Below are positions 17,399-33,600 of a stretch of DNA of 64,000 bases, in pieces. A program made the position numbers and the translations under genes. Position 1 is the stretch's first letter. Each line of letters begins with the position of its first letter. Location of the stretch: IMG/VR virus record IMGVR_UViG_3300021124_000001; one strand, given 5' to 3'. The stretch is from a virus. Taxonomy: Duplodnaviria; Caudoviricetes. The notes beneath the pieces were generated by a model, which did no database searches, was not told the DNA's origin, and was given only the letters and a program-made list of their open reading frames with translations.

Positions 17399-18021
17399 GT
17401 GATGTTTTTAAGATTAATACGGAAGAAATTGCTTCTGGTGTACAACAACCAACAATCGAAACATTCGATTTAGTTGCAGACAGTGATCCAATCCTACGTG
17501 AGGTGATGCCAGAGTTTGACTTTGAAAATGCAATTGTGAACCCTACAGATTTTGCATCTTCTTTGGTTGAAACTTGCAAGAAGAACCAAGGCATCGGTTT
17601 GTCTGCCAATCAATGTGGATTCCGACATCGTGTGTTTGTAATGGGTGCTGGTGATGAATATGTGGCCCACTTTAATCCTAAGATTGTAGAAACCGAAGGT
17701 GAAGCACACATGCTTGAAGGATGTCTATCGTTTCCTTTACTAGGACTACGTATTACTCGTCCAGCAACCATTACTGTGGAATATCAAGACCACAATGGAG
17801 AAAAGCATACCACAAAGTATGCCGGTATTTCTGCACGTTGTTTCCTCCATGAGCTTGACCACATGAATGGAATAGTGTATACTGACCGTGTGAAGCCGTT
17901 GGCATTGAAATCTGGTGTGAACAAACGCAACAAGGTTATCAAGAGAATGGCACAATACCAATCACTATTGATGAAGCAAGCTAAACAACAACATGGCAAA
18001 AACACCACCAGAACTCGTTGA
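17395..18021 (+). CDS. def: Peptide deformylase
   Basis: GIGLSANQ, EGCLS, HELDH motifs. Confidence 0.93.
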   Translation: MSDVFKINTEEIASGVQQPTIETFDLVADSDPILREVMPEFDFENAIVNPTDFASSLVETCKKNQGIGLSANQCGFRHRVFVMGAGDEYVAHFNPKIVETEGEAHMLEGCLSFPLLGLRITRPATITVEYQDHNGEKHTTKYAGISARCFLHELDHMNGIVYTDRVKPLALKSGVNKRNKVIKRMAQYQSLLMKQAKQQHGKNTTRTR

Positions 18022-19255
18022 AAAACAATGGTTGGAATGGAAAGAAAACAATACTTCCATTCCACACATTGATGAAGATACACTCAAAAAAAATCTAATA
18101 TCCGATTTGACGTATGCGTCACAAATGGATGTTAAAGAGTATACATTGTACCAAAAATGGTGTGAAGTAAAAGAGCGTTATCCTGTAGATGAAGTTTCTA
18201 CACTTTGGGGTCCTGAACTCCAAATGGTCAACAAAGATCAAGAAAACATTATCAAAGAAGTTAAGAAAAACTTTTGGATGCCTACTGGTCCAGATGATTA
18301 TGATAAACTTCAACCAATGCTAGAACTATCTAACGGTGAACTAGCAGAAACCTGGAATGCAGTTCGCACTTTCTCATCCACAATGAAGAACAATTCCAAC
18401 ATTGGTCGTAACCTGTTTTATACAGTCAAAGATCGTGTTACAGGAAAGTATCTTGGTGTTATCTGTATCTCTTCCGACTTCTTAGACTTGACTCCTCGTG
18501 ATACGGCCATTGGCTGGTCACGAGATGTTAAGACACAACAAGGTATGATTAACCATACAGCAATTGGTTCTACTATTGTTCCTTTACAGCCTCTTGGTTA
18601 CAGCTACATGGGTGGTAAATTGCTTGCACTTCTGTGCCTTGCAGATACTGTCCAAAAAGATTGGAAAGAACGTTATGGAGACACTCTTGTTGGCGTTACT
18701 ACAACGTCACTCTACGGAAAGACCAAAGCCGGTGGGCTTTCTCAATACGATGGTTTGGAACATTGGCAGAAGATGGGATTTTCTAGTGGGTCTGTTGCTT
18801 TTGAGCCTAAGCGCACAACTGCTAACATGGTCTACAAATGGATCAAAGAAAACCACACAAGAAAATACTTCGAATGGTGGGAAGCAAAGAACTCACAAGG
18901 ATTACCACTGAAACGTGACCACAAGAATCGTTCACTAAACTTTGCATATGGTAAGTTGAAGATTCCAAAAGAACTCATCCGTACAGAACACCAACGAGGC
19001 ATTTACTTTTCTCCGTTGTACAATAACACCAACGAATTTCTCCGTAAAGAAATCGGTGATGCGGATTTAGTAAAGAGTTTCGATACGTCCGAAGAAGCAT
19101 TGTCTAATATCTGGAAAACCAAATATGCTAAAGGTCGTATTCGTCAATTACAGAAACAAAATAAAGTCTCATATGAAAACCTATTCTATGATGACCTAAT
19201 CTATTTGACTTGGGAAGAAACCAAGGCAAAGTATCTACCCCAAGTTGGTAGATAA
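17993..19255 (+). CDS. DUF4338 / Druantia DruA-like protein
   Basis: IGR.L...V.D..TGKYLG, RD..IGW, VP..P.....GGKLLA.L, TTTSLYG, SQY. Confidence 0.65.
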   Translation: MAKTPPELVEKQWLEWKENNTSIPHIDEDTLKKNLISDLTYASQMDVKEYTLYQKWCEVKERYPVDEVSTLWGPELQMVNKDQENIIKEVKKNFWMPTGPDDYDKLQPMLELSNGELAETWNAVRTFSSTMKNNSNIGRNLFYTVKDRVTGKYLGVICISSDFLDLTPRDTAIGWSRDVKTQQGMINHTAIGSTIVPLQPLGYSYMGGKLLALLCLADTVQKDWKERYGDTLVGVTTTSLYGKTKAGGLSQYDGLEHWQKMGFSSGSVAFEPKRTTANMVYKWIKENHTRKYFEWWEAKNSQGLPLKRDHKNRSLNFAYGKLKIPKELIRTEHQRGIYFSPLYNNTNEFLRKEIGDADLVKSFDTSEEALSNIWKTKYAKGRIRQLQKQNKVSYENLFYDDLIYLTWEETKAKYLPQVGR

Positions 19256-27377: not shown

Positions 27378-27490
27378 GTTGTAATCTTACAACACTATGA
27401 AAAAGTTGTTGACATCCTGACCGAACCGTGTACAATAGCATCTTCGGTTGAGTAATCAATCAATTGTTCTTTAAAAAGTTAAGTGTATTT
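27378..27490 (+). promoter_or_regulatory. rrn-like promoter 1: palindrome, TTGACA-16-TACAAT, boxB-like hairpin, boxA
   Basis: GTTGTA-N4-TACAAC 27378-27393; -35 27409-27414; -10 27431-27436; TGTTCTTTAAAA 27465-27476. Confidence 0.75.
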
Positions 27491-27513
27491 TTTTGGCCAT
27501 TCCGCAAGGAGTG

Positions 27514-27604
27514 GCCATACTCAAACGCATTAGATCCCTTTTATACTGTGCTGGACGTACTAAGCTACAGGCGGTATAGATCCCTTTTAATGTGTTTGAG
27601 TATG
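27514..27604 (+). ncRNA. Long-stem RNA cassette 1
   Basis: CATACTCAAACGCATTA / TAATGTGTTTGAGTATG stem; AGATCCCTTTTA present twice inside. Confidence 0.55.
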
Positions 27605-27605
27605 T

Positions 27606-27680
27606 TGGGGAGAAATCGATTGGAGCAGATATTGCGCTTTGACCGCAAGTGATAGGGTTCGATTCCCTACTCCCCTGCCA
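27606..27680 (+). tRNA. tRNA-Gln(TTG)
   Basis: TTGCG-CTTTGAC-CGCAA arm, TTCGATT, GCCA. Confidence 0.8.
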
Positions 27681-27693
27681 AATAAATATATCT

Positions 27694-27879
27694 ATGATAG
27701 TAAATAACATAGTCAACAGATGGGACGTGGTGCAAAGCCAACGCCGACATATAGAGTATCGCACTCTAGAAGATCCTGTAACTCATAAAAAAGTTATAGA
27801 GGTCGAGGTACACCTTTACAATAAAAATGGTGTAGTACAGCCTGTTACTAAGGGAAACTCCGTAGATATAAAAGTATAG
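27694..27879 (+). CDS. Hypothetical protein
   Basis: 61-aa ORF between tRNAs, preceded by TAAATA. Confidence 0.45.
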   Translation: MIVNNIVNRWDVVQSQRRHIEYRTLEDPVTHKKVIEVEVHLYNKNGVVQPVTKGNSVDIKV

Positions 27880-27970
27880 GAAACGTGGCAGAGTCCGGTT
27901 TATTGCACCTGTCTTGAAAACAGACGGCTCTGAGAAGGGTCCGTGAGTTCGAATCTCACCGTTTCCACCA
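27879..27970 (+). tRNA. tRNA-Ser(TGA)
   Basis: GGAAACG/CGTTTCC, CT-TGA-AA, long variable arm, CCA. Confidence 0.9.
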
Positions 27971-27988
27971 ATTTTATAAGGAGGCATT

Positions 27989-28573
27989 ATGCCAGCAGTA
28001 TTTCTAGTAAGTGACACACACTTTGGTCATACTGGTGTGTGCCGATTCATGCAAAACGATGGTGTTACAAAACTTAGGCCATGGACTGATCCAAATGAAA
28101 TGGATGAAGAAATGGTTAAGCGTTGGAACGAAACAGTAAGACCTAACGACAAAGTTTACCATCTTGGTGACGTTGTTATTAACCGTAAAGCACTAAGCAT
28201 TATGAGTAGGCTGAACGGTGATAAAGTTCTTATTCGTGGTAACCATGACATCTTCCGTGATGATGAATACAGACAATACTTCCGTGAACTACGTGCATAC
28301 CATGTAATGAACGGAATGATTCTGTCGCATATTCCAATTCATGAAGCAAGTCTTGGTCGTTTCGGTGTTAACATTCATGGACACCTACATTCAAATCGTG
28401 TGATGAAGAATGATCCATTTGGTCATCGTGAACCAATGATTGACACCAGATACCATTGCGTATGTGTTGAACAGACCGATTTTCGGCCTATTCTTTTTGA
28501 AGATGTTATCAAACGAATCAAAGAAGAAGGTGGTGAGGTTGGTTTCCGTAACGGAAACGGACCCACAATGTAA
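27989..28573 (+). CDS. Calcineurin-like metallophosphoesterase
   Basis: SDTHFGH, LGD, GNHD, SH.P, HGHLH. Confidence 0.9.
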   Translation: MPAVFLVSDTHFGHTGVCRFMQNDGVTKLRPWTDPNEMDEEMVKRWNETVRPNDKVYHLGDVVINRKALSIMSRLNGDKVLIRGNHDIFRDDEYRQYFRELRAYHVMNGMILSHIPIHEASLGRFGVNIHGHLHSNRVMKNDPFGHREPMIDTRYHCVCVEQTDFRPILFEDVIKRIKEEGGEVGFRNGNGPTM

Positions 28574-28575
28574 TT

Positions 28576-28665
28576 GGAGAGTGGGCAGGATGGTAATGCA
28601 CCGGTTTGCTAAACCGCAGACTATAGAAATATGGTCACAGGGTTCGACTCCCTGACTCTCCACCA
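28576..28665 (+). tRNA. tRNA-Ser(GCT)
   Basis: GGAGAGT/ACTCTCC, TT-GCT-AA, long variable arm. Confidence 0.88.
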
Positions 28666-28683
28666 AGTTGTGTTGCAACTGAT

Positions 28684-28729
28684 TTGAGGAACTCCCGTCC
28701 ACCTCAATGAAAATGACAAAAAAACGGGG
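28684..28729 (+). ncRNA. Compact H-type pseudoknot
   Basis: TTGAGG/CCTCAA stem; loop TCCCGT pairs with downstream ACGGGG after an A-rich linker. Confidence 0.45.
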
Positions 28730-28739
28730 CCAAATTTAT

Positions 28740-28815
28740 GTACGTGTGACCCGAAAGGCTAGGGAACGGATTGCAAATCCGTTTTATGCAGGTTCGATTC
28801 CTGTCACGTACTCCA
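28740..28815 (+). tRNA. tRNA-Cys(GCA)
   Basis: GTACGTG/CACGTAC, TT-GCA-AA, U73, CCA. Confidence 0.88.
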
Positions 28816-28819
28816 AATT

Positions 28820-28927
28820 CTGTTGTATTTTTACAACAGTGGTTGACAAAGATGTTGGTTGTGCTATAATTCATCCATGAATTGAGAAATCAATCAATTG
28901 TTCTTTAAAAAGTTAAGTGTATTTTTT
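28820..28927 (+). promoter_or_regulatory. rrn-like promoter 2: palindrome, TTGACA-16-TATAAT, boxB-like hairpin, boxA
   Basis: CTGTTGTA-TTTT-TACAACAG; -35 28843-28848; -10 28865-28870; ~45-nt near-exact repeat of promoter 1 leader. Confidence 0.8.
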
Positions 28928-29002
28928 ATTCCGTTGGACTTCTGGTGAGGTCAGTAGGCTTTCAACTTACGCAGGCGAGTTCGATCCTCGTACGGAATAC
29001 CA
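28928..29002 (+). tRNA. tRNA-Glu(TTC)
   Basis: ATTCCGT/ACGGAAT, CT-TTC-AA, CCA. Confidence 0.85.
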
Positions 29003-29200
29003 TTTATTAGTGTTATTGTGGAAAATTTCAGTGAACGCTGGATAGTGAATCTGTCAATGTGTGGTTAATTCGAATAGACTACGTATACAGTTGTTGTAAG
29101 AAAAGACCTTTGGGACGCCTTATGGAATAATCTTACACGTTAAAAACAAACGGTGGTACGGTGAAGGCCATCCATAACACAGTAACACTAATAAATGGTA
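28998..29200 (+). ncRNA. Long-stem RNA cassette 2
   Basis: 23-bp stem TACCATTTATTAGTGTTATTGTG / CACAGTAACACTAATAAATGGTA (one G-U) enclosing ~155 nt. Confidence 0.6.
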
Positions 29201-29204
29201 ACAT

Positions 29205-29279
29205 GCGGGTGTAACTCAGAGGCAGAGTATCTGGCTTTTAACCAGAGAGTCGAGATTTCGAAATTCTCCACCCGTACCA
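29205..29279 (+). tRNA. tRNA-Lys(TTT)
   Basis: TCTGG-CTTTTAA-CCAGA, CCA. Confidence 0.85.
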
Positions 29280-29287
29280 AATAATTT

Positions 29288-29364
29288 GCCCTGGTGACGG
29301 AATAGGTATACGTACTGGTCTTAGAAACCAGGTTTTGAGAGTTCGAGTCTCTCCTAGGGCACCA
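29288..29364 (+). tRNA. tRNA-Leu(TAG), short variable arm
   Basis: CTGGT-CTTAGAA-ACCAG, 77 nt. Confidence 0.85.
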
Positions 29365-29365
29365 A

Positions 29366-29506
29366 AGGCAGCGGATAGGTTACATTATCCAGTATGAGTC
29401 GCAAGGTACCGCGGTAAATCCTTGGGCAAGCAACAGTACACTCATGCAATGTAACAGGTGAGCAGTGATCTGCTTCACGGAGATACCTCAAGAATGTTCT
29501 CCACCA
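29366..29506 (+). ncRNA. Structured RNA with pseudoknot ending in an acceptor-like minihelix and CCA
   Basis: GGATA/TATCC hairpin whose loop GTTACAT(T) complements AATGTAAC; ATGAGT/ACTCAT; GGAGA...TCTCC-A-CCA. Confidence 0.5.
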
Positions 29507-29511
29507 ATTTA

Positions 29512-29586
29512 GGTCTGTAAGTGTTCATGGACGCACGTTGGCTTGTCACGCCAAAAGAAGGGGATCGTTACCCCTATAGACCGCCA
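29512..29586 (+). tRNA. tRNA-Asp(GTC), T-loop ATCGTTA
   Basis: TTGGC-TTGTCAC-GCCAA, G73, CCA. Confidence 0.85.
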
Positions 29587-29591
29587 GTTTT

Positions 29592-29666
29592 GCCGATGTA
29601 GCTCAGAGGAAGAGCATTCGCTTGATAAGCGAAAGGCCGACATTTCGAAATTGTCCATCGGTACCA
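29592..29666 (+). tRNA. tRNA-Ile(GAT)
   Basis: TTCGC-TTGATAA-GCGAA, CCA. Confidence 0.85.
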
Positions 29667-29855
29667 GAATCCCGTTACTACTTTCGTTAAAGTAGCGTTT
29701 GATTAGCGAGAGAGATCCGGTGGCAGAAGACCGTTAGCGGAGAAATCCAGAATCTGATAGGCAGTATTCCTCTGCACACAGACGCAAGAATAAAAGGAAT
29801 GGACAGAGTAACCGCTCAATTAAGGGCTTGTGTGGAAACAAGTAGCTTATCCTAA
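29667..29855 (+). ncRNA. Unassigned structured RNA (~190 nt)
   Basis: No convincing ORF; hairpins CTACTTT/AAAGTAG, CGGT/ACCG, GGA-GAAA-TCC, CTTGT/ACAAG. Confidence 0.4.
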
Positions 29856-29859
29856 TTTT

Positions 29860-29944
29860 GGAGATGCCGCCGTAATGGTATGGCAGGAGACTGTAAATCT
29901 TCCGACTTCGGTCACAATAGGTTCGATCCCTATCATCTCCACCA
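29860..29944 (+). tRNA. tRNA-Tyr(GTA)
   Basis: CT-GTA-AA, variable arm GAC-TTCG-GTC, CCA. Confidence 0.88.
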
Positions 29945-29959
29945 ATGTTAATAATTTAT

Positions 29960-30034
29960 GGGGGCAGTAGTGGGCTACGGGTATCCCTTGCAAGGATGCT
30001 GTCTAGAAGGATTCGATTTCCTCGGCCTCCACCA
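29960..30034 (+). tRNA. tRNA-Ala(TGC), atypical D-arm
   Basis: G3:U70 pair, CT-TGC-AA, ACCA. Confidence 0.75.
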
Positions 30035-30051
30035 TAGATATATAAGTTTTT

Positions 30052-30126
30052 GCCGACTTAGCACAGTGGTAGTGCAATCGCCTTGTAAGCGATAGGTCAT
30101 CAGTTCGAATCCGATAGTCGGCACCA
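30052..30126 (+). tRNA. tRNA-Thr(TGT)
   Basis: ATCGC-CTTGTAA-GCGAT, CCA. Confidence 0.9.
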
Positions 30127-30133
30127 GTTTTAT

Positions 30134-30198
30134 GCGGGAGTTTCTAACAACGTTGGGGTCCACCCAATATCTACGTGGAAATCGTAGTTCCCGCTCCA
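30134..30198 (+). ncRNA. Minimal tRNA-Gly-like RNA (65 nt)
   Basis: GCGGGA/TCCCGC-T-CCA acceptor, no D-arm, 5-nt loop G-TCC-A, T-arm CTACG-TGGAAAT-CGTAG. Confidence 0.6.
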
Positions 30199-30205
30199 GT
30201 TTTTT

Positions 30206-30282
30206 CGGAGTGTAGCACAGCCTGGTAGTGCGCCTGCTTTGGGAGCAGGAGGTCGTAGGTTCGAATCCTACTACTCCGACCA
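30206..30282 (+). tRNA. tRNA-Pro(TGG)
   Basis: CCTGC-TTTGGGA-GCAGG, CCA. Confidence 0.92.
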
Positions 30283-30289
30283 TTTTTAT

Positions 30290-30368
30290 TCCCCATAATT
30301 CGAGCGTAGTGCACGGACCGGACTGTTAATCCGAGATTAGCTAGGAGCGTCACCTAGATGGGGAGCCA
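30290..30368 (+). tRNA. tRNA-Asn(GTT), atypical D-arm and T-loop AGCGTCA
   Basis: TCCCCAT/ATGGGGA-G-CCA, CT-GTT-AA. Confidence 0.75.
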
Positions 30369-30372
30369 ATTT

Positions 30373-30447
30373 GGTGATATAGCATAGACGGATATGCGGG
30401 GGTCTCATAAGCCTCAAAGGAAGGATCGTTACCTTCTATCACCACCA
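30373..30447 (+). tRNA. tRNA with CAT anticodon (Met or Ile2), T-loop ATCGTTA
   Basis: GGTGATA/TATCACC, CT-CAT-AA, CCA. Confidence 0.8.
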
Positions 30448-30932
30448 TATAAAAACACATTAGCCTACATCAGTACTAGGACGACTGTGCGATAAGCGGC
30501 TACCTAGATAAGCCCGCTAGTGTGTTTCTATATGGTAACAACGAAGACGACATGGAAAGATAGTGCAAAGGTATACAGTTGGTCTGGTTCGAAACAGGGT
30601 AACCCAATTTTATATTGAGCGTAGCATGACTGGCATCGCACCAGTAGTTAGTGGGTTCGATTCCCTCCGTTGTAATCATATAAAAACACATTCGCTTATA
30701 TTTTAACGGCTTGCAAGGCACGGGCGTATAAGAATATTGAGTGTGTTTCTATATGGTATGTAATGGCAGAAATGCGACCTAGAAGCGAGTGGACGAACAT
30801 GACTGTAGGCCACTAAGGTAGTCAACATTACACATCATATAAAAACACATTAACTCCTACTAGCAGGTGGGTAGGTTTGAAGTTCTGATGCTGAACGAAG
30901 GGTTCGAATCCCATAGTGTGTTTCTATATGGT
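30444..30932 (+). repeat. Three long-stem RNA cassettes (30444-30536, 30675-30757, 30834-30932) with identical arms and different interiors
   Basis: CATATAAAAACACATT ... AGTGTGTTTCTATATGGT occurs three times. Confidence 0.85.
30538..30678 (+). ncRNA. tRNA-like RNA with enlarged central domain
   Basis: ACAACG/CGTTGT closing stem, GGG-TTCGATT-CCC T-arm, second CTGG-TTCGAAA-CAG hairpin. Confidence 0.45.
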
Positions 30933-30937
30933 TTTAT

Positions 30938-31015
30938 GCGCCTCTAGTTCAACTGGATAGAGCACCGGGCTACGAACCCGTGAGGTTGGGGATTCGAATT
31001 CCTCGGGGCGCACCA
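30938..31015 (+). tRNA. tRNA-Arg(ACG)
   Basis: CGGG-CTACGAA-CCCG, CCA. Confidence 0.85.
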
Positions 31016-31033
31016 ATTTTAGGAGTATTAAAT

Positions 31034-31228
31034 ATGAGTGATGGTGGTAAAGGTTCAAATCCTCGACCATATAGTGTATCACAAGAGCAATTTGCTAATA
31101 ATTGGGATGCAATATTTGGTAAGGATAAGAAATCGAAACAAGAGAAGGCTCTTGATGAGTTGGCTCGAATTTCGGATGAGTTGGGACTCCACTATGATGA
31201 TGTGGAGAATCCATTAGTAAAGAAATAA
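31034..31228 (+). CDS. Small hypothetical protein (MSDGGKGS.PRP...W..IF)
   Basis: AGGAG RBS; 64 aa. Confidence 0.65.
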   Translation: MSDGGKGSNPRPYSVSQEQFANNWDAIFGKDKKSKQEKALDELARISDELGLHYDDVENPLVKK

Positions 31229-31229
31229 T

Positions 31230-31303
31230 ATCTCAGTAGTGTAATGGCAGCACAACGATCTCCAAAATCGTTTGTGAGGGTTCGAGTCCTTCCTGGGATG
31301 CCA
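31230..31303 (+). tRNA. tRNA-Trp(CCA)
   Basis: ACGAT-CTCCAAA-ATCGT, GCCA. Confidence 0.87.
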
Positions 31304-31316
31304 ATAAAGGATTGAT

Positions 31317-31805
31317 ATGAAAAATTTCGACATAGAAAAAGTTAAGGAATTCTTGTCAGCACAAGGACCAGATACTAAAGTTTATTTGGGTGCAGACTCA
31401 GAAAGAATTCGTGTAAATGGTGTTTGGTATGCAGATTATGCCTTGGCTGTCGTAGTTCATATTGATGGCCGCCATGGTTGTAAAATCTTTGGTTACGTTG
31501 AACGTGAACTTGATTATGACCACAAAAAATCCAAACCTGCTATGCGTCTGATGTCAGAAGTATACAAGGTTTCAGAATTGTTCCAAAACCTCCAGGACGT
31601 TCTGGAAGACCGTCATGTAGAAGTGCACCTAGACTTGAACAAACAAGACATCCATGGTTCATCCTGTGTTGTCCATCAAGCAATTGGATATATAAAAGGC
31701 ACTTGTAACATGACACCAATGGTTAAACCAGATGCTCCAGCAGCATCATTCTGTGCAGACCGTTTGAAACGGATTCTTGCTGAACAGGAATTGGCTGAAG
31801 CGTAA
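31317..31805 (+). CDS. RNase H-like YkuK (DUF458) family protein
   Basis: VYLGADS, VVH..G.HG, RL..EV, EVHLD, A..AD. Confidence 0.75.
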   Translation: MKNFDIEKVKEFLSAQGPDTKVYLGADSERIRVNGVWYADYALAVVVHIDGRHGCKIFGYVERELDYDHKKSKPAMRLMSEVYKVSELFQNLQDVLEDRHVEVHLDLNKQDIHGSSCVVHQAIGYIKGTCNMTPMVKPDAPAASFCADRLKRILAEQELAEA

Positions 31806-31895
31806 TAGTTCCGGGTTTGTTTACCCCGAGGATGACACGGCGGTTTCGGTGAGATTTAGTTCTCATCGACTCAGGGAGCCTAACGTAAACAATAT

Positions 31896-31969
31896 GCGGG
31901 TATGATGTAAAGGTAGCCTGTGACCTTGCCAAGGTTAGTGTGAGAGTTCGATTCTCTCTACCCGCTCCA
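31896..31969 (+). tRNA. tRNA-Gly(GCC)
   Basis: GCGGGTA/TACCCGC-T-CCA, TT-GCC-AA. Confidence 0.87.
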
Positions 31970-31991
31970 GTTTTTAGAATAGTCCGGCACG

Positions 31992-32042
31992 GACCGAAAG
32001 GCCGCACCGACCGAAAGGCCGCACCGACCGAAAGGCCGCACC
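31992..32042 (+). repeat. Three perfect 17-nt tandem repeats GACCGAAAGGCCGCACC
   Basis: Units at 31992, 32009, 32026; GC-rich against an AT-rich genome. Confidence 0.95.
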
Positions 32043-32114
32043 AAGTATAGCTGGAATTTACCAGTGAACCGGAAAGGAACAGCCGGGTACGGACGTCACG
32101 AGGATAATAAGTCC

Positions 32115-32657
32115 TCACCTATTCAATAAGTTTTTGGGATCTTCACGGAATCGAAAACTTATACTGATTCTGGCCTGATCTGTATCATTACACACCTGAT
32201 GTGGTATTTGATTATCAAACAAGACAGGTGTAGATAAATCAAATTCAGCCACTTGTGTAAATGTAGCTGATGTGTCATATTTCCAATAATTTAATCCTGA
32301 AGGTGTTTTGGACAATATTGGCTCCATATCACAGGTATACATTTTTGTTCGAGGTAAAGCACAATTCTGTATATCAAAATTTAAAGCCAAAGGATTGTTG
32401 ATCTTATTGATAAAATCAATGTGACAATCTTGAATTGTGTTTGGCGGTACAATGATTATTCCGATTGATCGAACGTTTAGTTTTTTACTATCAAACCAGT
32501 CCTTTATTAAAGGACATTTTTCTAATAGTTCCTGGTGTTGAACTTCATGGAATCCATGAACACGACCAGCAATAAAATTATTGACATACGGCCTTAACTG
32601 TGATACAATCTGGTCGTATCCATCAACATTTATATGTGAAAAGTAAAATTTAGTCAT
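32115..32657 (-). CDS. 2OG-Fe(II) oxygenase / double-stranded beta-helix protein
   Basis: HID ... ALNF ... PHQV ... RISISFR; minus-strand late promoter CATAAATA at 32663-32670. Confidence 0.65.
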   Translation of the reverse strand: MTKFYFSHINVDGYDQIVSQLRPYVNNFIAGRVHGFHEVQHQELLEKCPLIKDWFDSKKLNVRSIGIIIVPPNTIQDCHIDFINKINNPLALNFDIQNCALPRTKMYTCDMEPILSKTPSGLNYWKYDTSATFTQVAEFDLSTPVLFDNQIPHQVCNDTDQARISISFRFREDPKNLLNR

Positions 32658-32669
32658 AGCAATATTTAT

Positions 32670-32744
32670 GGTGGTTATAGTGTAGTGGAAGCACCCGACT
32701 CTGTGAAAGTCGTAGTATGGGATCGTTACCCATTAATCACCCCA
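32670..32744 (+). tRNA. tRNA-His(GTG) with G-1, T-loop ATCGTTA
   Basis: CGACT-CTGTGAA-AGTCG, C73, CCA. Confidence 0.85.
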
Positions 32745-32749
32745 AATTT

Positions 32750-32825
32750 GCCTGGTTGCGTAGAGAGGTTATACGTCTCCTTTACACGGAGAGCGATGTA
32801 GGTTCGAGTCCTACACCAGGTACCA
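32750..32825 (+). tRNA. tRNA-Val(TAC)
   Basis: TCTCC-TTTACAC-GGAGA, CCA. Confidence 0.87.
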
Positions 32826-32872
32826 AATTCGCTCTAACACACGGCGTACAATGAGATAAGTGGTGTGTTCTC

Positions 32873-32946
32873 GCTCTCATAGTATAATGGTATTACACAT
32901 CCTTGGTAAGGATGAGAACCAGGCTCGTTTCCTGGTGGGAGCACCA
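32873..32946 (+). tRNA. tRNA-Thr(GGT), T-loop CTCGTTT
   Basis: CATCC-TTGGTAA-GGATG, CCA. Confidence 0.82.
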
Positions 32947-33041
32947 TATGAAAGCATTCTAAACTGGACGCAGGTTCTGTGAAGTAAGACCTCGGGGTAA
33001 TTGCCGAGAAGGTATGGAGAATAAGAATGCTTCCATATGGT
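32943..33041 (+). ncRNA. Long-stem RNA cassette 6
   Basis: ACCATATG-A-AAGCATTCT / AGAATGCTT-C-CATATGGT, same A.C mismatch position as cassettes 3-5. Confidence 0.6.
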
Positions 33042-33051
33042 AAATGCAACT

Positions 33052-33600
33052 CTAGCTGATGTTAGATTTATGTCCTCGTTTTGCGTGTGATAATTTCATA
33101 GCTTCAGACATAGTTTTTTTGTATTTTTCTGTTCTTGGTTTTTGAATTCTAGCTTTTGCCTTTTCAGAAATAGATTTTCTGCCGCTTGCAGTTATTGGTG
33201 ACGGCATAGATTTTAATGTGTTTCGTATTTTATCTTTAGTTTCTTGTGTATGCTTAGTTCCCAATTTTTTATTTCTAAGCATTTCACCGAATTCTATTTT
33301 TATAGAATCGAATAATCTACTATTCATATATCTTTGCTGTTTATCGGTTTTGCCTTTCATTAACATAAAAGCGTGTAACATTTTATAACGATTTGAACCT
33401 GTTGTCATTTTCGTTAACAACAAGTGGCATATAAAATGCTCTCTTGCTGTTAATTTTACTAAATTTTCTTTGGTGTCATTTCCACCAAAAGATTTGGGTA
33501 TTATGTGGTGTCGTTCAAGATATCCTACATTGTTATTTCTTAATTTGGCATTTTTTATTATAGAAAAATACCAGTTTTTATACTTAGAGTTATTAAACAT
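33052..33600 (-). mobile_element. Free-standing HNH homing endonuclease with NUMOD3-type tail
   Basis: ERHHIIPKSFGG....NLVKLTAREHFICHLLL; G.KHT.ETK.KI; TATAAATA on minus strand 33624-33631. Confidence 0.88.

What the first reader, a model, noticed from the sequence alone, without database searches (positions are those of the whole stretch)
27514..33041. Family of long-stem RNA cassettes with a constant scaffold and variable cargo, interleaved with tRNAs
Seen: at least six 17-23-bp stems enclosing unrelated interiors of about 45-155 nt (27514-27604, 28998-29200, 30444-30536, 30675-30757, 30834-30932, 32943-33041). Three have identical arms (CATATAAAAACACATT / AGTGTGTTTCTATATGGT). The 32943 copy keeps the same A.C mismatch position with a compensatory A-U to G-C change. 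The 27514 copy keeps CCATA-N3-AAAC-R-CATT. Three start inside the ACCA end of the preceding tRNA (Glu, CAT-tRNA, Thr), so the stem would pair with that CCA. Interiors include duplicated motifs (AGATCCCTTTTA x2; GATAAGC x2) or a T-arm (GGG-TTCGAAT-CCC). Inference: a standard processing or protein-binding stem (RNase III-like site, or Y-RNA-like stem) that releases a library of small RNAs. These might act as decoys or antitoxin mimics against host defences.
Basis: partly seen in the sequence, partly recalled or inferred. Interest (0 to 1): 0.82.

Follow-up and report, generated by a model that had tools for sequence, protein, structure and literature searches.

The report
Constant-stem RNA cassettes between phage tRNAs
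The tRNA gene array of this uncultured T4-like phage, and of more than 230 related environmental phage contigs, holds small hairpin cassettes that share one 17-base-pair closing stem but carry about 190 unrelated folded RNA inserts; no such modular RNA system has been catalogued and its function is unknown.

Summary
All six long-stem cassettes are present. The canonical stem is CCAUAUAAAAACACAUU paired with AGUGUGUUUCUAUAUGG. It recurs in 407 cassettes on 232 IMG/VR contigs of T4-like phages, always inside tRNA arrays and always co-oriented with the tRNAs.

- **Placement:** 63% start with the CCA of the upstream tRNA, and 28% run into the first G of the next tRNA.
- **Upstream tRNA:** 84% of the abutting cassettes follow tRNA-Lys(UUU), Glu(UUC) or Gln(UUG).
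- **Stem:** it shows compensatory changes, a G·U-over-A·C bias that marks the tRNA-sense RNA as the selected strand, and a conserved A·C mismatch at pair 8.
- **Interiors:** they fall into 193 sequence clusters. Several clusters are conserved structured RNAs with strong covariation, including the family of the window's 32943 cassette.
- **Known families:** two clusters resemble YrlA (Y RNA-like). The phages encode no Ro or RNase III. Rfam has no family for the stem.

Best reading: these are transcribed, tRNA-punctuated small-RNA cassettes. The common helix closes and protects each cargo, and also serves as a homology handle for swapping cargo. The processing enzymes and the cargo functions are inferred, not shown. 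No RNA data could be obtained.

The parts
27514..27604 (+). Cassette 1. It has a diverged arm (CCATACTCAAACGCATT) and lies in the leader just 5' of tRNA-Gln(UUG). The interior carries AGATCCCTTTTA twice.
   Evidence: z -5.7. Pairs 6-8 are all changed compensatorily relative to the canonical arm.
28998..29200 (+). Cassette 2. It has a 23-bp stem with a different sequence and a 157-nt interior, and fills the space between tRNA-Glu(UUC) and tRNA-Lys(UUU).
   Evidence: z -5.7. The same Glu-cassette-Lys layout is seen in relatives (L030).
30444..30536 (+). Cassette 3, with canonical arms. It starts in the ACCA of tRNA-Met(CAT).
   Evidence: A cargo relative lies in L080 after tRNA-Glu.
30675..30757 (+). 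Cassette 4, with canonical arms (UCA instead of CCA at the base). It follows a tRNA-like RNA.
   Evidence: The same cargo occurs in L107, and in L157 after tRNA-Lys.
30834..30932 (+). Cassette 5, with canonical arms. The cargo has a T-arm next to the 3' arm, and tRNA-Arg(ACG) starts 5 nt downstream.
   Evidence: The same cargo occurs in L005.
32943..33041 (+). Cassette 6. It has a diverged arm that keeps the A·C mismatch at pair 8 and starts in the ACCA of tRNA-Thr(GGU). The cargo belongs to a conserved structured RNA family with the motif ACUGGACGCAGG.
   Evidence: (14 of 30 pairs compensatory, 99.7% of cells paired).
28928..29002 (+). tRNA-Glu(UUC). Its CCA is the base of cassette 2.
29205..29279 (+). 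tRNA-Lys(UUU), starting 4 nt after cassette 2.
30373..30447 (+). tRNA-Met(CAT). Its CCA is the base of cassette 3.
32873..32946 (+). tRNA-Thr(GGU). Its CCA is the base of cassette 6.
27606..27680 (+). tRNA-Gln(UUG), starting 1 nt after cassette 1.
30537..30674 (+). Non-tRNA spacer RNA between cassettes 3 and 4. It has a terminal 6-bp stem and a T-loop-like element.
   Evidence: Relatives lie in L145 and L147.
30758..30833 (+). 76-nt spacer RNA between cassettes 4 and 5, closed by a 7-bp terminal stem.
   Evidence: Relatives lie in L107, L047 and L111.
27409..27436 (+). Sigma-70-type promoter (11/12) that drives the first tRNA/cassette unit.
28843..28870 (+). Sigma-70-type promoter (12/12, extended -10) that drives the main tRNA/cassette unit.
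32581..32609 (+). Sigma-70-type promoter (11/12) upstream of tRNA-His, Val and Thr and cassette 6.

Best explanation
The cassettes are parts of the polycistronic tRNA transcripts. Each is a small structured RNA (the cargo) closed by a standard 17-18-bp helix. The 5' strand of the helix begins with the CCA of the upstream tRNA. The 3' strand ends at, or a few bases before, position +1 of the next tRNA.

Inferred mechanism:
- The host tRNA-maturation machinery sets the boundaries. RNase P cuts on the 3' side. An endonucleolytic cut after CCA (RNase Z/BN-like), or a cut within the helix (RNase III-like or RNase E-like) followed by trimming, frees the 5' side. This is the tRNA-punctuation principle.
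- The helix then gives every cargo the same exonuclease-resistant, independently folding frame.
- At the DNA level, the shared arms act as short homology handles through which cargos are exchanged between sites and between co-infecting phages. This produces a shuffled library.

Cargo functions are diverse and unknown. A minority of cargos copy tRNA elbow elements, and two clusters have a YrlA-like layout.

Shown here: the family, its placement, its strand, selection on the helix, cargo covariation and cargo swapping. Inferred: transcription, the processing enzymes, accumulation of discrete RNAs, and what the cargos do.
For: **Distribution.** There are 407 cassettes in 232 of 256 loci. All 3990 tRNAs in those loci are co-oriented with them. 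In five whole contigs of 166-364 kb the arms occur only as pairs within a few kilobases of each other, which is the tRNA array in the stretches read (G001, G005).

**Placement.** 256 of 407 cassettes start with the tRNA's own CCA. In 84 cases the next tRNA begins at the penultimate base of the arm, and in 30 at its last base.

**Strand and helix.**
- Pair 8 is A·C in 206 of 327 unique cassettes and never G·U. Pair 16 is U·G in 202 and C·A in 1, so the orientation is invariant.
- Elsewhere in the arms G·U outnumbers A·C by 136 to 38. This is expected only if the tRNA-sense RNA helix is under selection.
- Pair 7 switches from A-U to U-A (41) or G-C (17).
- Pair 18 has no preferred identity but is paired in 83% of cassettes.

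**Cargo is functional RNA.**
- The family of cassette 6 has 14 of 30 pairs with compensatory change and 99.7% of cells paired. None of 500 shuffles reached this, and slid controls gave 3 or fewer.
- Two further families show the same pattern.
- The loop motif ACUGGACGCAGG occurs 35 times on the tRNA strand against once on the other strand.

**Swapping.**
- 43 of 62 multi-member cargo clusters sit behind more than one kind of tRNA.
- Different cargos occupy the same Lys-His junction, and empty junctions exist.
- The outer arm follows the site: Lys has A-U at pair 7 in 145 of 150, Glu has U-A in 14 of 34, p = 4e-9. The inner arm follows the cargo.

**Transcription context.** Three strong promoters lie upstream, and no strong terminator was found within the arrays.

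**No phage enzyme.** No phage-encoded RNase III, Ro, RtcB, Rnl2 or CCA-adding enzyme was found. Host enzymes are therefore the candidates.
Against: - No RNA evidence of any kind could be obtained.
- A mere scaffold does not explain why 17 bp are conserved in sequence while the preceding tRNA-Lys genes are only about 71% identical. This comparison is inflated by how the loci were found.
- It does not explain why an A·C mismatch is kept at pair 8.
- It does not explain why 84% of abutting cassettes follow only tRNA-Lys(UUU), Glu(UUC) and Gln(UUG).
- A leader locked in a helix is a poor RNase P substrate by established knowledge, so a prior cut in the stem may be needed.
- 63 of 119 non-abutting cassettes had no tRNA, cassette or acceptor-like stem just upstream in a crude test.
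- The hosts, and hence their RNase repertoire, are unknown.
Confidence: 0.5

Rival explanations
1. The constant helix is a sequence-specific handle for one protein, of host or phage origin, and the variable cargo is an adaptor or decoy module. The system would work like Y RNAs, whose stem binds Ro60 while the other module tethers a partner.
For: - The 17 bp are conserved in sequence, not only in pairing, with a fixed non-Watson-Crick position (A·C at pair 8 in 63%).
- Conservation ends abruptly after pair 17.
- Two cargo clusters have the YrlA order: stem, T-arm, D-arm, stem. One of them aligns to the whole Rfam YrlA model (29.6 bits, E 6e-5 in a 161-nt search).
- YrlA is described as a long Ro-binding stem plus a tRNA-like domain, and is found in phages too (PMC4201824).
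Against: - No TROVE/Ro and no RtcB were found in five large related contigs, three of them complete.
- The YrlA score is far below the gathering score of 69, and none of the window's cassettes matches.
- Only 27 of 193 cargo clusters have a T-loop.
- The arm shows no evident likeness to the Ro-binding helix. This was not formally tested.
- No candidate partner gene is universal: PF04308 lies nearby in only 3 of 5 contigs.
Confidence: 0.17
2. The cassettes are selfish MITE-like DNA elements with terminal inverted repeats that insert at the palindromic tRNA junction CCA-TA-TGG. The hairpin merely makes them harmless in the transcript.
For: - Orthologous junctions are either filled or empty.
- Empty junctions reading CCATATGG exist (L169).
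- TA flanks both ends, as in TA-duplicating elements.
- The same cassette occurs behind different tRNAs.
- A homing HNH endonuclease gene abuts cassette 6.
Against: - Copies within one genome have unrelated interiors.
- In whole contigs the arms occur only as pairs within one small region (the tRNA array where read), 1-3 canonical copies per genome.
- Orientation is invariant: 206 A·C against 0 G·U at pair 8.
- The G·U-over-A·C bias and cargo covariation show selection on the RNA.
- No inverted cargos were found.
- The outer arm stays with the site while the cargo moves. This fits recombination rather than transposition.
- The TA flanks cannot be told apart from the palindrome itself.
- Near-identical strains show no cassette polymorphism.
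Confidence: 0.1
3. The stems are plain RNase III-type processing hairpins that separate neighbouring tRNAs, as in rRNA operons. The interiors are unconstrained loops with no function of their own.
For: - The long helix bridges the 3' end of one tRNA and the 5' leader of the next.
- The arrays have rRNA-operon-like promoters and a duplicated boxA-like leader.
- By established knowledge, T4 tRNA precursors and rRNA precursors use RNase III stems.
Against: - Interiors of 19-237 nt are conserved across contexts, with compensatory changes and invariant loop motifs.
- A structure-only site would covary freely rather than keep its 17-bp sequence.
- The helix is 17-18 bp with a mismatch, which is short for a classical RNase III site.
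- Most tRNA junctions in the same arrays do without any hairpin.
Confidence: 0.1

Closest known systems
YrlA / bacterial Y RNA (Rfam RF02553; Chen et al. 2014, PMC4201824)
   Same: - The 5' and 3' ends form a long stem that encloses a variable module.
- Some cargos carry a T-arm and a D-arm in the permuted YrlA order.
- One relative aligns to the full YrlA model.
- YrlA also occurs in phages.
   Different: - No Ro/TROVE gene was found in the related phages.
- The score is below the Rfam threshold, and the window's cassettes give no match at all.
- Here one stem sequence serves about 190 unrelated interiors, most of them without tRNA-like elements.
- The cassettes are fused to tRNA ends.
Phage T4 RNAC and RNAD (species 1 and 2 RNAs of the T4 tRNA region)
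   Same: - They are small stable non-tRNA RNAs encoded among the tRNA genes of a T4-type phage.
- Their function is still unknown (PMC3014915; PMC9697503).
- T4 rnaC has a T-arm, as do 14% of the cargo clusters.
   Different: - They share no constant long closing stem.
- There are two fixed RNAs rather than a swappable library.
- No sequence similarity was found to any GenBank phage, T4 included.
tRNA punctuation: mitochondrial transcripts, murid herpesvirus 68 tRNA-pre-miRNA units, engineered tRNA-guide RNA arrays (from my own knowledge, not checked here)
   Same: Non-tRNA RNAs are set free because they abut tRNAs that RNase P and RNase Z cut out. In the herpesvirus a hairpin directly follows the tRNA-like unit.
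   Different: - Those systems have no shared closing helix that includes the CCA.
- Bacterial hosts with encoded CCA need a cut after CCA, which is not shown here.
PeSL mobile regulatory cassettes of T4-type phages (Arbiol et al. 2010, PMC2839356; PMC4122927)
   Same: Short conserved non-coding motifs in T4-type genomes serve as homology for modular shuffling of what lies between them.
   Different: - PeSLs are composite terminator-promoter motifs in direct orientation, and they flank protein genes in hyperplastic regions.
- Here the repeats are inverted, form an RNA helix, and flank small RNAs inside tRNA arrays.
Bacterial MITEs such as Neisseria Correia elements (from my own knowledge)
   Same: Terminal inverted repeats, TA at the ends, transcribed hairpins, and presence/absence polymorphism.
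   Different: MITE copies share their interior, are dispersed and occur in both orientations. None of these features holds here.
GOLLD RNA (Rfam RF02032)
   Same: A large structured RNA of unknown function in phage tRNA arrays from lakes. It occurs in the same arrays in relatives L002, L045 and L034.
   Different: GOLLD is a single, large conserved RNA family (Rfam model 416 positions), not a modular small cassette, and it was not found in this window.

Membership tests
YrlA / Y RNA | A long stem formed by the 5' and 3' ends | tested here: met
   A 17-23-bp closing stem is present in all six window cassettes.
YrlA / Y RNA | A tRNA-like domain with T-arm, acceptor-like stem-loop and D-arm in that order (PMC4201824) | tested here: not met
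   None of the window cassettes has it. Among 193 cargo clusters only two (L003, L034) show a T-arm followed by a D-arm.
YrlA / Y RNA | Reaches the Rfam gathering score for RF02553 | tested here: not met
   The window gives no match at E<=10. The best relative, L034, scores 29.6 bits against a cut-off of 69.
YrlA / Y RNA | Encoded next to, and bound by, a Ro60/Rsr (TROVE) protein | tested here: not met
   No PF05731 match was found in five related contigs, three of them at least 99% complete. Of the 88 candidate ORFs in the window about 37 were scanned with Pfam; none is TROVE, and the rest were not scanned. Binding is not testable with these tools.
MITE (miniature inverted-repeat transposable element) | Terminal inverted repeats | tested here: met
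MITE (miniature inverted-repeat transposable element) | Target-site duplication | tested here: inconclusive
   TA flanks both ends, and an empty CCATATGG junction exists. However, the TA is part of the palindromic stem, so a duplication cannot be told apart from it.
MITE (miniature inverted-repeat transposable element) | Many copies with homologous interiors, dispersed in the genome in either orientation | tested here: not met
   Interiors are unrelated within a genome. In whole contigs the arms occur only as pairs within one small region (the tRNA array where read). Orientation is invariant, and no inverted cargos were found.
RNase III processing stem | A double-stranded RNA of about two helical turns that bridges flanking sequences of a precursor | tested here: inconclusive
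   The helix is 17-18 bp with an A·C mismatch at pair 8 (23 bp in cassette 2). It bridges the tRNA 3' end and the next tRNA's leader.
RNase III processing stem | Staggered cleavage by RNase III | not testable with these tools
No phage-encoded RNase III was found.
tRNA | A cloverleaf recognised by ARAGORN or Rfam RF00005 | tested here: not met
   No cassette was called as a tRNA.
PeSL (promoter-early stem-loop) cassette of T4-type phages | A composite terminator stem-loop plus early promoter, in direct repeats flanking ORFs | tested here: not met
   The arms are inverted, enclose no ORF, and showed no terminator or strong promoter match.
PeSL (promoter-early stem-loop) cassette of T4-type phages | Serves as homology for modular exchange | tested here: met
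   The outer arm follows the site and the inner arm follows the cargo. Different cargos occupy the same junction. This is an analogy of mechanism, not membership.

The most novel reading that the evidence does not exclude
The arms are a universal plug that lets T4-like phages express, stabilise and rapidly exchange a population-wide library of RNA decoys or adaptors. These are physically coupled to tRNA-Lys(UUU), Glu(UUC) and Gln(UUG), the three tRNAs with 2-thiolated wobble uridines that anticodon nucleases are known to target. Under this reading the cargos are RNA-based counter-defence or host-takeover modules. The conserved A·C-containing helix would be read by one dedicated, still unknown factor.
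Probability: 0.2. Interest if true: 0.95.

Novelty: categorically new. Interest (0 to 1): 0.82.

Why it matters
If the reading holds, phage tRNA arrays are not only tRNA supplies. They would also be expression platforms for a large exchangeable repertoire of small structured RNAs. About 190 cargo types were seen in only 2.3 Mb of sampled DNA, and none is catalogued in Rfam.

- **An old question.** It would give a handle on what the non-tRNA RNAs of T4-type tRNA regions (RNAC, RNAD) are for.
- **A natural scaffold.** It would be a natural counterpart to the engineered tRNA-flanked RNA arrays and RNA scaffolds of synthetic biology.
- **RNA in the phage-host conflict.** It would be a new place to look for RNA-level players in that conflict, given the tight link to tRNA-Lys, Glu and Gln.
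- **Candidates for study.** The conserved cargo families, for example the ACUGGACGCAGG family, are ready candidates for structural and functional work.

Tried and rejected
- **Rfam:** nothing matched any window cassette at E<=1 over 10.5 kb or at E<=10 over 511 nt.
- **GenBank phages:** no cultured phage carries the cassettes.
- **Prokaryotic genomes:** one exact pattern hit in 185,579 species. It is a 1.5-kb contig made of tRNAs and cassettes inside a Ca. Planktophila MAG, most likely a mis-binned phage fragment.
- **Partner enzymes:** TROVE, RNase III, RtcB, Rnl2-type ligase and CCA-adding enzyme are all absent from five large relatives.
- **PF04308 gene:** the RNase H-like gene inside the window's array (31317-31805) lies near the cassettes in only 3 of 5 relatives and is missing from a complete 364-kb genome that has a cassette. 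It was rejected as an obligatory partner.
- **RNA editing of the A·C mismatch by the neighbouring deaminase:** rejected, because that protein is a dCMP deaminase.
- **Cargo inversion between the inverted arms:** no cargo was found in reverse orientation.
- **Strain-level mobility:** contigs 99-100% identical to the window have identical cassettes.
- **G·U-to-A·C ratio in cargo helices (344:8):** set aside as evidence, because RNAalifold chooses pairs on the strand it is given. The arm counts do not have that bias.

Full report
**What the window is.** The window comes from a T4-like phage.
- It encodes gp20 portal, gp23 capsid, gp18 sheath, gp43 polymerase (51% identical to cyanomyovirus gp43), gp44, gp45, UvsX and UvsW.
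- It has no close relative among 50,697 GenBank phage records.
- It carries 26 tRNA genes on the + strand between 25437 and 34076.
- Three strong sigma-70-type promoters lie at 27409, 28843 and 32581, and no strong terminator was found inside the arrays.

**Check of the observation.**
- The three identical-arm copies and the three diverged copies are found where stated. The 18-nt 3' arm occurs 6 times against 0.11 expected.
- Each cassette folds with the long stem closed, with z-scores of -3.3 to -6.4.
- Three cassettes begin in the ACCA of tRNA-Glu, tRNA-Met(CAT) and tRNA-Thr(GGU).
- The 32943 copy keeps an A·C mismatch at pair 8, while pairs 7 and 11 change from A-U to G-C.
- The 27514 copy changes pairs 6-8 compensatorily.

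**The family outside the window.** The analysis covered 256 loci totalling 2.34 Mb.
- 239 loci carry tRNAs. All 3990 tRNAs share one strand within each locus.
- There are 407 cassettes in 232 loci, of which 327 are unique.
- In five whole contigs of 166-364 kb the arms occur only as pairs within a few kilobases of each other, at 1-3 canonical copies per genome. That region is the tRNA array in G001 and G005. Four of the five contigs have T4-type gp23, and three are at least 99% complete.
- One representative genome for each of 185,579 prokaryotic species gave a single hit. It is a 1.5-kb contig made of tRNAs and cassettes in a Ca. Planktophila MAG, most likely a phage fragment.
- No cultured phage has the cassettes.

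**Anatomy of the helix.** In the tRNA sense the consensus is (A)CCAUAUAAAAACACAUU paired with AGUGUGUUUCUAUAUGG(U).
- Sequence conservation stops abruptly after pair 17. Pairs 15-17 were not part of the search pattern, so their conservation is not an artefact of the search.
- Pair 18 has no preferred identity (A-U 109, C-G 51, G-C 44, U-A 27, G·U 41) but is paired in 83% of cassettes.
- Pair 7 switches from A-U to U-A (41) or G-C (17).
- Pair 8 is A·C in 206 of 327, A-U in 59 and G-C in 28. It is never the G·U that an inverted element would show.
- Pair 16 is U·G in 202 and C·A in 1. Orientation relative to the tRNAs is therefore invariant.
- Outside these two positions G·U outnumbers A·C by 136 to 38.
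- Taken together, the helix forms in the tRNA-sense RNA and is under selection there. The A·C at pair 8 is a conserved feature rather than decay.

**Placement.**
- 256 of 407 cassettes use the upstream tRNA's own CCA as their first three bases.
- In 84 cases the next tRNA, as called by ARAGORN, starts at the penultimate base of the 3' arm. In 30 it starts at the last base, and in about 45 it starts 4-8 nt later.
- Of the abutting cassettes, 150 follow tRNA-Lys(UUU), which is 77% of all 194 such tRNAs. A further 34 follow Glu(UUC) and 30 follow Gln(UUG). Every other tRNA species is followed in 4% of cases or fewer.
- These three species make up 13% of the tRNAs but precede 84% of the abutting cassettes.
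- In bacteria they are the tRNAs with 2-thiolated wobble uridine, and tRNA-Lys is a known target of anticodon nucleases (established knowledge; PARIS in PMC11464382). I have no tested explanation for this link.

**The cargo.** Interiors measure 19-237 nt, with a median of 58, and fall into 193 similarity clusters, 131 of them singletons. They are not junk.
- The family that includes the window's cassette 6 has 11 sequences from different tRNA contexts. In it 99.7% of cells are paired and 14 of 30 pairs show compensatory change, against 6.2 ± 1.1 in shuffles (0 of 500 reached the observed value) and 3 or fewer in slid controls. It also has an invariant G·U and invariant loop motifs.
- Two other families behave alike. 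One of them shares the motif ACUGGACGCAGG.
- That motif occurs 35 times on the tRNA strand and once on the other strand. 32 of the 35 lie inside cassettes: 30 in detected cassettes and 2 in cassettes with diverged arms.
- T-loop motifs occur in 27 of 193 clusters. They often lie directly before the 3' arm, as in the window's cassette 5.
- Two clusters have a T-arm followed by a D-arm, which is the layout of YrlA. One of them aligns with the complete Rfam YrlA model at 29.6 bits, below the gathering score of 69.
- The window's own cassettes match no Rfam family.

**Exchange of cargo.**
- 43 of 62 multi-member clusters occur behind more than one kind of tRNA.
- The same Lys-His junction holds different cargos in different contigs.
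- Empty versions of filled junctions keep CCA-N4-8-(U)GG.
- The outer part of the arm goes with the site: pair 7 is A-U behind Lys in 145 of 150 and U-A behind Glu in 14 of 34 (Fisher p = 4e-9). The inner part, for example CUCU/AGAG in the cassette-6 family, goes with the cargo.
- Breakpoints therefore lie inside the arms. This fits homologous exchange through the arms better than transposition of whole elements.
- No cargo was found inverted.
- Contigs 99-100% identical to the window have the same cassettes.

**How it most likely works.** The cassettes are co-transcribed with the tRNAs.
- Because they begin at CCA and end at the next tRNA, the tRNA-maturation enzymes can define their ends. 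RNase P would act at the 3' side. The 5' side would need a cut after CCA, or a cut within the helix followed by trimming.
- The phages encode no RNase III, Ro, RtcB, Rnl2-type ligase or CCA-adding enzyme, so host enzymes are the candidates.
- The helix would give each cargo a common, exonuclease-resistant and independently folding frame.
- At the DNA level the helix would also be the homology through which cargos are shuffled.
- All steps concerning processing, accumulation and cargo function are inferred.
- A simple scaffold model leaves three things unexplained: the sequence conservation of the arm, the A·C mismatch, and the preference for Lys, Glu and Gln tRNAs. These keep open the rival reading that one factor reads the helix specifically.

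**Comparison with known systems.**
- The closest in form is YrlA/Y RNA, but three defining features were tested and not met: the Ro neighbour, the Rfam threshold, and the tRNA-like domain in most cargos.
- The closest in genomic setting are T4 RNAC and RNAD, whose roles remain unknown.
- The closest in principle are tRNA-punctuated RNAs and the rRNA-operon processing stems.
- For the DNA-level shuffling the closest are the PeSL motifs of T4-type phages.
- A MITE reading fails on dispersal, orientation and interior homology.
- I found no description of this family in Rfam 15 or in the paper library.

**Verdict.** This is a real, widespread and uncatalogued modular RNA family.
- Confidence that the helix and several cargos are functional sense-strand RNA is about 0.85.
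- Confidence in the tRNA-punctuated scaffold plus recombination-handle mechanism is about 0.5.
There was no follow-up.

Noticed in passing
window 27448-27493 and 28882-28927: A 46-nt leader is duplicated at 98% identity after the two main tRNA promoters. It contains UUGUUCUUUAAAAAG, which resembles the rRNA-operon boxA antitermination signal. A similar leader occurs in relatives L030 and L074.
   Followed up: partly
window 29667-29859: A 193-nt non-coding stretch between tRNA-Ile and tRNA-Tyr is conserved at 85-92% identity in 24 related loci. It matches no Rfam family and is probably another array-borne structured RNA.
   Followed up: partly
window 29945-30051, 30127-30205, 30283-30372: These are tRNA-sized RNAs with a 7-bp terminal stem and an NCCA end that ARAGORN does not call as tRNAs. 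They are conserved in 18, 4 and 16 related loci respectively.
   Followed up: partly
window 31982-32040: A 17-nt unit (CCGCACCGACCGAAAGG) is repeated three times in tandem. A 99.8%-identical contig (L170) differs from the window by a single 17-nt gap over the aligned 10.5 kb. The gap was not located, but it would fit one repeat unit fewer.
   Followed up: partly
L002:503-965, L045:2633-3098, L034:2321-2676; L045:812-1112: GOLLD RNA lies inside the tRNA arrays of related contigs (212 and 202 bits; the third match, 148.5 bits, is cut off by the end of the locus and falls just under the cut-off of 150). In L045 it ends 5 nt before a cassette. L045 also carries a permuted tmRNA.
   Followed up: no
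window 33052-33600 (-) and 32115-32657 (-): An HNH homing-endonuclease gene abuts cassette 6. The neighbouring 180-aa ORF is absent from contig L171, which matches the window at 96-99.7% identity.
   Followed up: partly
window 31317-31805 (+) and 27989-28573 (+): An RNase H-like protein (PF04308, phrog_11311, function unknown) and a metallophosphoesterase are embedded in the tRNA array. Each recurs in about a quarter of the related loci.
   Followed up: partly
window 17993-19255 (+): A phage protein matches the Druantia DruA family (PF14236, E 7.5e-20).
   Followed up: no
L266:1409-1547 (-) (phage T4 rnaC): T4 species 1 RNA folds with a canonical T-arm (CCGGGUUCGAAUCCCGG) near its 3' end. In this it resembles the T-arm-bearing cargos.
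   Followed up: no
A3 (cargo family of L254, L108 and others), columns 38-43 and 93-98: CCUAGC and GCUAGG covary (CCUGGC with GUCAGG). This suggests a pseudoknot that RNAalifold did not draw.
   Followed up: no
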